This document shows positions 50,701 to 53,700 of a stretch of DNA of 64,000 nucleotides, piece after piece. The stretch lies in NCBI RefSeq assembly GCF_046105845.1, contig NZ_CP151004.1, one strand, 5' to 3'. The position numbers were made by a program. Numbering within the stretch: position 1 is the stretch's first letter; each line of letters starts with the position of its first letter. This DNA comes from Escherichia coli. Lineage in GTDB: Bacteria; Pseudomonadota; Gammaproteobacteria; Enterobacterales; Enterobacteriaceae.

Positions 50701-53700
50701 ATATCGTCAACCAGTGCGCCACGGGACAGGTCGTTAACCGGCTTGCGCATACCCTGCAGCATCGGCCCGATGGAGATCAGGTCGGCAGAACGCTGTACCG
50801 CTTTGTAGGTGGTGTTACCGGTGTTCAGATCCGGGAAGATGAACACGGTAGCGCGACCTGCAACCGGAGAGTTCGGCGCTTTGGATTTCGCAACGTCAGC
50901 CATTACCGCAGCGTCGTACTGCAGCGGACCGTCGATCATCAGGTCAGGACGTTTTTCCTGCGCCAGACGAGTTGCTTCGCGAACTTTTTCTACGTCGCTA
51001 CCAGCACCAGAAGTCCCGGTGGAGTAGGAGAGCATAGCAACGCGCGGTTCGATACCGAAGGCCGCAGCGGAATCAGCGGATTGAATCGCGATTTCTGCCA
51101 GCTGTTCTGCGGTCGGATCCGGGTTGATCGCACAGTCACCGTAAACGTAAACCTGTTCCGGCAGTAGCATGAAGAACACGGAAGATACCAGGGAGCTGCC
51201 CGGTGCAGTTTTGATCAGCTGCAGCGGCGGACGGATGGTGTTTGCGGTAGTGTGAACAGCACCGGAAACCAGACCATCAACTTCATCCTGTTCCAGCATC
51301 AGCGTACCGAGAACCACGTTGTCTTCCAGCTGTTCGCGGGCAACGGTTTCGGTCATGCCTTTGTTCTTACGCAGCTCGACCAGACGACCAACATAGCTTT
51401 CGCGAACCACTTCTGGATCAACGATTTCAATGCCTGCACCCAGTTCTACACCCTGAGACGCTGCAACACGGTTGATCTCTGCCGGATTACCCAGCAGTAC
51501 GCAAGTTGCGATACCACGTTCAGCACAGATAGCGGCTGCTTTAACGGTACGCGGTTCATCACCTTCCGGCAGAACGATACGTTTGCCCGCTTTGCGCGCA
51601 AGTTCGGTCAGCTGATAACGGAACGCCGGCGGAGACAGACGACGGCTGCGCTCAGAAGTGGCAGTCAGAGAATCGATCCAGTCAGCGTTGATGTAGTTAG
51701 CAACGTATTCCTGAACTTTCTCGATACGCTCGTGATCGTCAACCGGAACTTCCAGGTTGAAGCTCTGCAGGCTCAGAGAAGTCTGCCAGGTGTTGGTGTT
51801 CACCATAAATACCGGCAGGCCGGTAGCGAAAGCACGTTCGCACAGTTTAGAAATGCGCGCGTCCATTTCGTAGCCGCCAGTCAGCAGCAGGGCACCGATT
51901 TCTACGCCGTTCATGGCAGCCAGGCAAGCGGCAACCAGCACGTCAGGACGGTCTGCGGAAGTCACCAGCAGAGAACCGGCACGGAAGTGCTCCAGCATGT
52001 GCGGAATGCTGCGTGCGCAGAAAGTGACGGATTTAACGCGGCGAGTATTGATGTCGCCTTCGTTGATGATGGTCGCATTCAGGTGGCGAGCCATATCGAT
52101 CGCACGAGTCGCGATCAGGTCAAAGCTCCACGGCACAGCGCCGAGAACCGGCAGCGGGCTGGATTCTTGCAGCTTCGCCGGATCAACATTGTTTACTTTA
52201 GCTTTGGAAGAGTCGTCGAAAATCTCGGACAGATCCGGGCGAGTACGACCCTGTTCATCAACCGGTGCATTCAGTTTGTTAACGATAACGCCGGTGATGT
52301 TGGTGTTTTTGGCACCGCCGAAGCTGTTGCGGGTCAGTTCGATACGCTCTTTCAGCTGTTCCGGGGTGTCAGTGCCCTGAGACATAACGAAGACGATTTC
52401 CGCATTCAGCGTTTTAGCGATTTCGTAGTTCAGAGACTGGGCAAACTGGTGCTTACGTGTCGGGACCAGACCTTCAACCAGAACGACTTCAGCGTCTTTG
52501 GTGTTAGCGTGGTAGTTTGCGACGATCTCTTCCATCAGCACATCTTTCTGATTGCTGGAAAGCAGACCTTCAACGTAGCTCATTTTCAGCGGTTCAGCGG
52601 CCGTCGTGGTGGAAGAGTTCGCACGTACGATAGTCGTAGTCTGATCGGGCGCATCGCCACCGGTACGCGGCTGAGCGATAGGTTTGAAAACGCTCAGACG
52701 AACGCCTTTGCGTTCCATTGCACGGATCACGCCAAGGCTGACGCTGGTCAGACCGACGCTGGTTCCGGTAGGGATCAGCATAATAATACGGGACACGGTT
52801 TATCCTCTTTCGTTACCGCCGATTTGGCGGGTTACAAAACAGCACCGCCAGCTGAGCTGGCGGTGTGAAATCAGGCAGTCAGGCGGCTCGCGTCTTGCGC
52901 GATAACCAGTTCTTCGTTGGTTGGGATAACCACCGCAGGACGGGTACCTTCTTTGTTGATGAAACCAGATTTGCCGAAACGTGCAGCCAGGTTGCGTTCA
53001 TGATCAACTTCAAAGCCCAGCACGCCCAGTTTGCCCAGAGACAGTTCACGAACCATCGCGGCATTTTCACCGATACCACCGGTGAATACAACAGCGTCCA
53101 GACGACCATCCATCAGCGCAGTGTAGGCACCGATGTATTTCGCCAGGCGGTGGCAGTAAACGTCCATTGCGCGCTTCGCGTCTTCTTTCGTCGCGTAGTT
53201 GTCTTCAACATAGCGGCAGTCGCTGGTCACTTCGGTCAGACCCAGCAGGCCAGACTCTTTGGTCAGCAGTTTGTTGATTGCGTCAACGCTCATGCCCAGG
53301 GTGTCGTGCAGGTGGAAGATGATCGCCGGATCGATATCACCAGAACGGGTACCCATGACCAGACCTTCCAGCGGGGTCAGGCCCATAGAGGTGTCAACGC
53401 ATTTACCGTTGCGGATAGCAGAAACGGAACCACCGTTGCCCAGGTGGCAGGTGATGATGTTCAGTTCTTCTACCGGTTTGTTCAGCATTTTTGCCGCTTC
53501 CTGGGTTACATAGAAGTGGCTGGTGCCGTGCGCGCCGTAACGACGGATGCCGTGCTCTTTGTACAGGTTGTACGGCAGGGCGTAGAGGTAAGACTCTTCC
53601 GGCATAGTCTGGTGGAACGCGGTGTCAAATACAGCAACGTTTTTGTCTTTCAGCTGTGGGAAAGATTTCAGAGCTTCTTCGATACCGATCAGGTGAGCCG

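What the first reader, a model, noticed from the sequence alone, without database searches (positions are those of the whole stretch)
52833..52865. Hairpin with U-tract between ackA and pta
A strong 10-bp stem (CACCGCCAGC...GCTGGCGGTG) followed by a T-rich tract sits on the coding strand between ackA and pta. It may act as a partial terminator that sets the ratio of ackA-only to ackA-pta transcripts.
Basis: inference. Interest (0 to 1): 0.15.

Follow-up and report, generated by a model that had tools for sequence, protein, structure and literature searches.

The report
Conserved hairpin ending the ackA cistron
A strong, evolutionarily conserved RNA hairpin with a short U-run sits just after the E. 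coli acetate kinase gene and before pta; it looks like an ordinary weak (leaky) terminator or 3'-end-protecting stem inside an operon, and nothing shows it is more than that.

Summary
The window is E. coli chromosome. ackA (52871-54073) and pta (50652-52796) lie on the minus strand. A perfect 10-bp stem (52865-52843, loop UCA, about -19 kcal/mol) starts 5 nt after the ackA stop codon and is followed by CUGUUUUGUA.

It is not chance. The 8-bp stem core and the UUUU run are invariant in 69 Enterobacteriaceae, while the loop and synonymous sites vary freely. In more distant Enterobacterales the stem is kept by compensatory changes: 5 of 10 pairs, 99.6% of cells paired. All one-sided changes are G·U pairs on the ackA-sense strand, so this is an RNA structure in the operon transcript.

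The U-tract is weak, with a T-score of 1.66 against 3.1-4.1 for operon-end terminators nearby. The hairpin lies so close to the stop codon that terminating ribosomes should repress it. Published work reports ackA-pta and pta-only transcripts, and Pta falls when ackA mRNA is silenced. No 3'-end data at this site could be retrieved.

Best reading: a leaky intrinsic terminator and 3' stabiliser. The main rival is a pure processing or stability element. This is a known kind of element and of low interest. Side finding: an ERIC repeat sits in the hairpin loop in about 12 other species.

The parts
52871..54073 (-). ackA (acetate kinase) coding sequence, 400 aa, stop TGA at 52873-52871
   Evidence: ORF list; RefSeq annotation under 100% identical E. 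coli matches; PF00871 on homologues
52843..52865 (-). Hairpin H1: CACCGCCAGC-uca-GCUGGCGGUG, 10 perfect pairs (8 G-C), about -18.9 kcal/mol, starting 5 nt after the ackA stop codon
   Evidence: The 8-bp core is invariant in 69 Enterobacteriaceae. With more distant Enterobacterales added, 5 of 10 pairs show compensatory changes and 99.6% of cells are paired
52833..52842 (-). U-rich tail CUGUUUUGUA (UUUU at 52839-52836). An intrinsic-termination 3' end would be expected about 7-9 nt after the stem, at 52836-52834, roughly MG1655 2414707-2414709
   Evidence: UUUU is invariant in 69 Enterobacteriaceae and kept in Serratia, Dickeya, Brenneria, Hafnia and Rahnella, but not in Erwinia or L087. T-score 1.66
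52816..52830 (-). Hairpin H2: CCGCC-aaauc-GGCGG, a second small stem-loop between the U-run and the pta ribosome-binding site
   Evidence: MFE structure; 2 of 5 pairs with compensatory changes, 93.5% of cells paired; loop length and sequence vary
52803..52808 (-). pta Shine-Dalgarno AGAGGA within the nearly invariant AACGAAAGAGGAUAAACC. The preceding ACGAAAGAG can pair with the U-run in read-through RNA
   Evidence: conservation; pairing predicted and kept in 94-99% of cells, but with no double changes
50652..52796 (-). pta (phosphate acetyltransferase) coding sequence, 714 aa, GTG start
   Evidence: PF13500/PF07085/PF01515 on homologues
50585..50615 (-). Operon-end terminator after pta (hairpin followed by UUUUAUUCUCUU), used here as the comparator for a canonical U-tract
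   Evidence: T-score 4.14

Best explanation
The element is an RNA hairpin in the ackA-pta operon transcript that marks the 3' boundary of the ackA cistron. It most likely acts as a weak (leaky) Rho-independent terminator. When RNA polymerase transcribes the UUUU run, the 10-bp G+C-rich stem can form behind it and release a minority of transcripts as ackA-only RNAs ending about 7-9 nt after the stem. The same stem would then shield those 3' ends from 3'-to-5' exonucleases. Most polymerases read through into pta, for two inferred reasons. First, the U-tract is short and interrupted by C and G next to the stem. Second, the stem begins only 5 nt after the stop codon, so a ribosome terminating at UGA covers its 5' arm. 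Shown here: the structure exists, it is single-copy, it is selected as a sense-strand RNA hairpin across Enterobacterales, and its U-run is conserved but always short. Inferred: that it terminates at all, what fraction it terminates, and the ribosome gating.
For: The anatomy and orientation fit an intrinsic terminator. It is the top-ranked site in the scan, with a stem of -18.9 kcal/mol and z = -5.8 for the intergenic region.

Purifying selection is clear. All 16 nucleotides of the 8-bp stem core, plus T30 and the four T of the run, are 100% conserved in 69 Enterobacteriaceae. In the same alignment the three loop positions are 16-39% conserved, and only 6-22% of flanking third-codon positions are invariant. 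The loop takes 21 different sequences of 3-6 nt.

Covariation appears once Serratia, Erwinia, Dickeya, Hafnia, Rahnella and Brenneria are added: 99.6% of cells are paired, 5 of 10 pairs have changes on both sides, and 0 of 500 shuffles reach this.

One-sided changes are G.U or U.G on the ackA-sense strand only. They would be A.C mismatches on the other strand, so selection acts on the sense RNA.

A run of 4-6 U follows the stem within 0-3 nt in 51 of 53 distinct sequences.

Leakiness fits three results: Pta falling 48% when ackA mRNA is silenced (PMC1635301); the weak T-score of 1.66 against 3.1-4.1; and repression of terminators placed a few bp after a stop codon (PMC4824070).
Against: I could retrieve no 3'-end mapping at this site. 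The curated Term-seq list of Adams et al. 2021 has nothing at MG1655 24146xx-24147xx, although it also misses the pta terminator. The held supplements of the SMRT-Cappable-seq and TERMITe papers do not mention ackA.

Kakuda et al. 1994, as cited in PMC6085430, reported ackA-pta and pta-only transcripts, not an ackA-only one.

The U-tract is far from canonical (C-U-G before UUUU). In Erwinia amylovora (CUGUCUCAG) and L087 (CUGCAUUUGU) the hairpin is kept while the U-run is degraded. This suggests the hairpin matters more than termination.

Conservation of the U-run could instead reflect an RNase E-type single-stranded AU-rich site, or pairing with the purine-rich pre-SD sequence.
Confidence: 0.5

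Rival explanations
1. The element controls intercistronic mRNA processing and stability and does not terminate. The operon RNA is cut, for example by RNase E, in the single-stranded UGUUUUGUAA segment between the two hairpins. H1 then protects the 3' end of the ackA fragment from PNPase, RNase II and RNase R. H2 forms a 5' stem-loop that protects the pta fragment. The two cistrons can then have different half-lives.
For: Two conserved hairpins flank a conserved AU-rich single-stranded segment. H2 covaries. H1 is retained where the U-run is degraded, in Erwinia and L087. ackA and pta are known to be regulated discoordinately: SdhX lowers AckA but not Pta (PMC6393394; PMC9438474). The architecture resembles known intercistronic stabilisers such as malE-malF REP, puf and pap (from general knowledge).
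Against: No cleavage data were found. The held supplements of the Salmonella RNase E cleavage map do not mention ackA or pta. An internal pta promoter already explains a pta-only transcript. The sequence fits a terminator equally well, and the two roles are not exclusive.
Confidence: 0.27
2. The element tunes pta translation. In read-through RNA the U-run (CUGUUUUGU) pairs with ACGAAAGAG just upstream of and into the pta Shine-Dalgarno, enclosing H2. H1 acts as a clamp or insulator that fixes this local fold and keeps ackA-terminating ribosomes from perturbing it.
For: The MFE structure contains this helix. The pairing is kept in 94-99% of cells across 44 Enterobacteriaceae, including C-to-U changes that preserve a wobble pair. 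Removing the U-run raises the predicted unpaired probability of the AGA part of the SD from about 0.1-0.3 to 0.8-1.0.
Against: No pair has changes on both sides. G-to-A changes break the only G-C pair in 6 sequences. Both partners are conserved for obvious reasons of their own. The GGA core of the SD is predicted to pair with early pta codons regardless. The helix is A-U rich and weak.
Confidence: 0.08
3. The sequence is a DNA-level palindrome that binds a dimeric regulator, or a structure that acts on an antisense transcript.
For: The 8-bp core is invariant in sequence, rather than merely in structure, across a whole family. That is more sequence constraint than a generic hairpin needs.
Against: All one-sided substitutions give G.U or U.G on the sense RNA and would be mismatches in duplex-DNA symmetry or in antisense RNA. 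More distant genera change the sequence but keep the pairing. The loop varies in length from 3 to 6 nt and even accepts insertions of 107-315 nt, which would disrupt half-site spacing. The other strand has no T-run.
Confidence: 0.04
4. The hairpin is a chance palindrome or a copy of a dispersed repeat (REP/BIME-like) with no function of its own.
For: E. coli intergenic regions often carry repeated palindromes.
Against: It is single-copy in 5423 E. coli genomes; the two 'places' per genome are probably the palindrome matching itself on both strands. It never occurs in shuffles. It is conserved and covaries across Enterobacterales. Rfam gives no hit better than E = 2.1.
Confidence: 0.01

Closest known systems
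Leaky intra-operon Rho-independent terminators and attenuators of E. coli (for example rpsU-dnaG T1 and the rplL-rpoB attenuator; recalled from the literature, not tested here)
   Same: A G+C-rich hairpin plus U-run lies between two co-transcribed genes, oriented with transcription. The downstream gene is still expressed by read-through and also from an internal promoter.
   Different: The U-tract is much weaker (four U, 3 nt from the stem). The hairpin is 5 nt from the stop codon. Termination here has never been measured, as far as the literature I could reach shows.
Intercistronic 3' stabiliser hairpins (malE-malF REP, Rhodobacter puf, pap; recalled from general knowledge)
   Same: A stable stem-loop at the 3' end of the upstream cistron inside a polycistronic mRNA, followed by a single-stranded AU-rich segment.
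   Different: The element is single-copy, not a REP repeat. Differential decay of ackA and pta segments has not been shown.
Stop-codon-proximal terminators repressed by the terminating ribosome (tR2 reporter series, PMC4824070)
   Same: The distance from stop codon to hairpin (5 nt) is shorter than the shortest spacers tested (8-9 bp), and tR2 termination was almost abolished at short distances.
   Different: That study used a strong phage terminator in a synthetic reporter. The effect has not been tested for this natural site.
ERIC/IRU repeats (related loci only)
   Same: In about 12 other Enterobacteriaceae a 107-315 nt repeat sits in the loop of this hairpin. It carries GAATCCCCAGGAGCGTA...GTGACTGGGGTGAGC and has a median of 8 matching places per E. 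coli genome.
   Different: The E. coli window has no such insertion, so the hairpin itself is not part of ERIC.

Membership tests
Rho-independent (intrinsic) terminator | G+C-rich stem of about 5-14 bp with a short loop, on the transcribed strand downstream of a gene | tested here: met
   10 bp, 8 G-C pairs, 3-nt loop, -18.9 kcal/mol, 5 nt after the ackA stop codon, same strand as ackA and pta
Rho-independent (intrinsic) terminator | U-tract of about 7-9 nt immediately 3' of the stem, U-rich especially next to the stem | tested here: inconclusive
   The tail is CUGUUUUGUA. It passes the loose scan criterion of 5 T in 8, but its T-score is 1.66 against 3.1-4.1 for operon-end terminators in the window and about 5.1 for an ideal tract. 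The T-score formula was written from memory. The UUUU run is conserved.
Rho-independent (intrinsic) terminator | RNA 3' ends map 7-9 nt after the stem in vivo | not testable with these tools
   No raw 3'-end data are available. The curated Term-seq table of Adams et al. 2021 has no entry at MG1655 24146xx-24147xx, but it also lacks the pta terminator. Other supplements were not held or do not mention ackA.
Rho-independent (intrinsic) terminator | Factor-independent release of RNA polymerase in vitro | not testable with these tools
   This needs single-round in vitro transcription.
Intercistronic mRNA stabiliser / processing module | Stable hairpin at the 3' end of the upstream cistron, conserved as RNA structure | tested here: met
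Intercistronic mRNA stabiliser / processing module | Endonucleolytic cleavage downstream of the hairpin and different half-lives of the two segments | not testable with these tools
   Only the sequence context (single-stranded UGUUUUGUAA between two hairpins) is compatible. ackA and pta do not appear in the held supplements of the Salmonella RNase E map.
REP/BIME or other dispersed palindromic repeat | Many copies per genome sharing a consensus | tested here: not met
   One locus per genome in 5423 E. coli genomes; one match in the window
Any curated Rfam family (riboswitch, leader, sRNA) | Covariance-model score at or above the gathering threshold | tested here: not met
   Best matches score 15.5-16.8 bits against thresholds of 39-43, with E-values of 2.1 or higher
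Attenuator with a competing antiterminator | An alternative, mutually exclusive structure of comparable stability involving one arm of the terminator | tested here: inconclusive
   Neither the MFE nor the centroid structure shows a competitor. Only 5-bp CCGCC/GGCGG pairings with H2 or with ackA codons are possible (by inspection), much weaker than the 10-bp stem. This was not searched exhaustively.

The most novel reading that the evidence does not exclude
The hairpin could be a ribosome-gated conditional terminator. It starts 5 nt after the ackA stop codon, so it could form only when no ribosome is terminating there. The fraction of polymerases continuing into pta would then report how well ackA is being translated, for example under SdhX repression. 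Alternatively, the absolute sequence invariance of its 8-bp core across Enterobacteriaceae could reflect sequence-specific recognition by an unknown RNA-binding factor. Either would make this a dedicated regulator of the AckA:Pta balance, and hence of acetyl-phosphate levels.
Probability: 0.1. Interest if true: 0.45.

Novelty: new member of a known kind. Interest (0 to 1): 0.15.

Why it matters
AckA and Pta together set the level of acetyl-phosphate, a global signal and acetyl donor. The two genes are known to be regulated discoordinately: SdhX represses ackA but not pta. A conserved element at the cistron boundary that trims read-through or stabilises the ackA segment would be one of the devices that uncouple the two enzymes. 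As it stands, this is a routine example of an intra-operon hairpin. Its practical value is as a well-conserved, easily mutable site for testing how stop-codon-proximal weak terminators behave in vivo.

Tried and rejected
- **Rfam:** an E-value scan of 52300-53400 gave only chance-level hits.
- **Repeat family:** a BLAST of the 45-nt element against 5426 E. coli genomes showed a single locus, so REP/BIME is rejected.
- **DNA palindrome or antisense element:** rejected because the wobble pairs are specific to the sense strand.
- **Direct 3'-end evidence:** none was obtained.
  - The Adams 2021 tables have no entry at the site.
  - The supplements of Dar & Sorek 2018, Choe 2022, Herzel 2022 and Conway 2014 are not held.
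  - The TERMITe and SMRT-Cappable-seq supplements do not mention ackA.
  - The Salmonella TIER-seq supplements do not mention ackA or pta.
- **Papers not held:** De Mets et al. 2019 (PNAS) and Li et al. 2014 (Cell). I therefore could not check their northern blots or the AckA:Pta synthesis rates.
- **Full-text search for the hairpin sequence:** it found only knockout-primer listings.
- **RNAalifold on the whole intergenic region:** it recovered only H1. H2 and the U-run/pre-SD helix had to be tested with named structures.
- **U-run/SD pairing:** kept as a minor rival because it has no compensatory changes.
- **First ORF-boundary script:** it mis-called the ackA stop codon and was corrected.

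Full report
**What is there**

The window is E. coli chromosome. A 261-nt query around the site is 100% identical to many complete E. coli genomes, and RefSeq annotates ackA (acetate kinase) and pta (phosphate acetyltransferase) under the match. Both genes are on the minus strand: ackA at 52871-54073 and pta at 50652-52796.

On that strand the 74-nt intergenic region reads as follows:
- UGA stop codon (52873-52871), then uuuca
- CACCGCCAGC (52865-52856), loop uca, GCUGGCGGUG (52852-52843)
- CUGUUUUGUA (52842-52833)
- a second small hairpin CCGCC-aaauc-GGCGG (52830-52816)
- AACGAAAGAGGAUAAACC, then the GUG start of pta (52796)

**Is it more than chance?**

Yes, on several counts:
- The terminator scan ranks it first in 50500-56500, with 10 pairs, 8 of them G-C.
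- The intergenic RNA folds at -35.8 kcal/mol against -18.8 +/- 2.9 for shuffles, z = -5.8.
- Perfect stems of at least 10 bp occur at about 9 distinct places in the 64-kb window; the scan made 16 register hits against 0.57 per shuffle.
- The core pattern never occurs in 100 shuffles.
- It is single-copy in 5423 E. coli genomes, so it is not a REP-type repeat.
- Rfam has nothing, with a best E-value of 2.1.

**Comparative evidence**

I fetched 80 Enterobacteriaceae ackA-pta loci and extracted the intergenic regions. In the 69 without large insertions:
- The 8-bp stem core CCGCCAGC/GCUGGCGG, the T before the run, and the UUUU run are 100% invariant.
- The three loop positions are only 16-39% conserved.
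- Only 6-22% of flanking third-codon positions are invariant.
- The loop takes 21 different sequences of 3-6 nt.

Through AckA homologues I then fetched Serratia, Erwinia, Dickeya, Hafnia, Rahnella, Brenneria and two further loci. The hairpin is present in all, 5-13 nt after the stop codon, with compensatory substitutions. On 53 distinct sequences, 99.6% of cells are paired, 5 of 10 pairs carry changes on both sides, and no shuffle of 500 reaches this.

Every one-sided change is a G.U or U.G pair on the ackA-sense strand. These would be A.C mismatches on the other strand. Selection therefore acts on the sense RNA, not on a DNA palindrome or an antisense transcript.

A run of 4-6 U follows the stem within 0-3 nt in 51 of 53 distinct sequences. 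The exceptions are Erwinia amylovora (CUGUCUCAG) and L087 (CUGCAUUUGU), where the hairpin persists without a good U-run.

**How good a terminator is it?**

The stem is strong, but the U-tract is poor.
- C and G occupy two of the three stem-proximal positions, and only four consecutive U follow.
- A d'Aubenton-Carafa-type T-score (formula from memory) is 1.66. Operon-end terminators in the same window score 3.1-4.1, including the pta terminator at 4.14, and an ideal tract scores about 5.1.
- No species examined has lengthened the run beyond six U.
- The stem begins 5 nt after the stop codon. In a reporter study, tR2 was 'almost fully repressed' by the terminating ribosome at short stop-to-terminator distances and reached full efficiency only beyond about 30 bp (PMC4824070).

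Both features predict a leaky site in vivo.

**What the literature says**

I found no paper describing this hairpin.
- A paper citing Kakuda et al. 1994 states that two transcripts were reported, pta-only and ackA-pta (PMC6085430).
- SdhX represses ackA but not pta (PMC6393394; PMC9438474).
- The curated Term-seq list of Adams et al. 2021 has no 3' end at the expected MG1655 position. The coordinate mapping MG1655 = 2467543 minus window coordinate is consistent with their yfcD and purF 3' ends. The list also lacks the pta terminator, so this absence is weak evidence.
- Other 3'-end datasets were not held or do not mention ackA.

**Interpretation**

I commit to a weak intrinsic terminator that doubles as a 3' protective stem for the ackA cistron, with most polymerases reading through. 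My confidence is about 0.5.
- Shown: the structure, its strand, its conservation, and its conserved but short U-run.
- Inferred: termination itself, its efficiency, and the ribosome gating.

The main rival (about 0.27) is a pure processing and stability module. In that reading, H1 and the covarying H2 flank a single-stranded UGUUUUGUAA that would suit RNase E. This would also explain why the hairpin outlives the U-run in Erwinia.

A minor rival (about 0.08) is that the U-run is conserved because it pairs with ACGAAAGAG at the pta Shine-Dalgarno. The pairing is kept in 94-99% of cells but has no compensatory change.

DNA-level and chance explanations are essentially excluded.

**Novelty and score**

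This is a new, uncharacterised member of a very familiar class: intra-operon leaky terminators and stabiliser hairpins. The family-wide sequence invariance of the stem core and its closeness to the stop codon are mildly unusual. They leave room (about 0.1) for a ribosome-gated or factor-recognised regulator of the AckA:Pta balance. Overall interest is 0.15.

**Side finding**

In about 12 other species an ERIC/IRU-like repeat of 107-315 nt is inserted exactly in the loop of this hairpin. These include Klebsiella oxytoca, K. indica, a K. pneumoniae-labelled genome, Raoultella, several Citrobacter, two Enterobacter and Intestinirhabdus.
- The repeat matches a median of 8 places per E. coli genome.
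- The predicted fold keeps the H1 stem as the base of the long ERIC hairpin, still followed by the UUUU run (CAGUUUUGU in the folded K. oxytoca allele).
- Most of these alleles share a G.U-containing right arm, and 3 of the 11 from the first set have one stem mismatch.

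Noticed in passing
L014, L015, L018, L030, L043, L053, L060, L066, L072, L073, L078 (intergenic region just upstream of pta, which starts at locus position 1501 in most; 986 in L015); L088:1804-2003: An ERIC/IRU-like repeat of 107-315 nt is inserted exactly in the loop of the ackA 3' hairpin in Klebsiella, Raoultella, Citrobacter, Enterobacter and Intestinirhabdus species. 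It contains GAATCCCCAGGAGCGTA...GTGACTGGGGTGAGC. The stem arms and the UUUU run are retained, and the predicted fold stacks the ERIC hairpin on the H1 stem. Most of these alleles share the right arm GCTGGTGGTG (one G.U pair). The repeat matches a median of 8 places per E. coli genome.
   Followed up: partly
L035 and L036, loop of the hairpin: The unusual 6-nt loops CATAAC and CATAAT resemble the left end of the ERIC insertion (CATAACCC...). They may be a footprint of a lost insertion or the preferred target.
   Followed up: no
window 52816-52830 (-): A second small hairpin (CCGCC-aaauc-GGCGG) lies between the U-run and the pta ribosome-binding site. It is conserved as structure, with compensatory changes and a loop that varies in length across Enterobacteriaceae. 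It is absent in Phytobacter (L041).
   Followed up: partly
window 52803-52842 (-): The U-run CUGUUUUGU is complementary to ACGAAAGAG, which overlaps the pta Shine-Dalgarno. The pairing appears in the MFE structure and is kept in 94-99% of cells, but without compensatory changes.
   Followed up: partly
window 50585-50641 (-): The end of pta carries two tandem hairpins, 50641-50619 and 50613-50587, the second followed by a good U-tract. Adams et al. 2021 list a Rho-termination region at MG1655 2416989 (+), just downstream, but no discrete 3' end at this terminator.
   Followed up: no
window 38820-38844 and 48913-48934: Two other strong hairpins in the window coincide with 3' ends curated by Adams et al. 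2021: purF at 2428685 and yfcD at 2418606. The purF hairpin has no U-tract at all. The yfcD hairpin has A-runs and T-runs on both sides, giving it a bidirectional look.
   Followed up: no
L082, L084, L085 (downstream of ackA): Erwinia amylovora, Hafnia and Rahnella have much longer ackA-pta spacers (166-206 nt), with extra strongly structured sequence after the conserved hairpin. In Erwinia the called pta start is TTG.
   Followed up: no
L009 (Kluyvera genomosp. 3) and L087 (AP025685.1): My script found no long ackA ORF ending upstream of pta in L009; a frameshift or assembly issue is possible. The L087 AckA is labelled Salmonella enterica, but it is only 91% identical to E. coli AckA, its genome is 4.26 Mb, and its spacer is divergent. 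The label may be wrong.
   Followed up: no
L089 (E. coli strain 25DN), aligned to window 52768-52932: An E. coli strain carries G-to-T just after the U-run, giving CUGUUUUUUA. This lengthens the run to six U without touching the stem.
   Followed up: no
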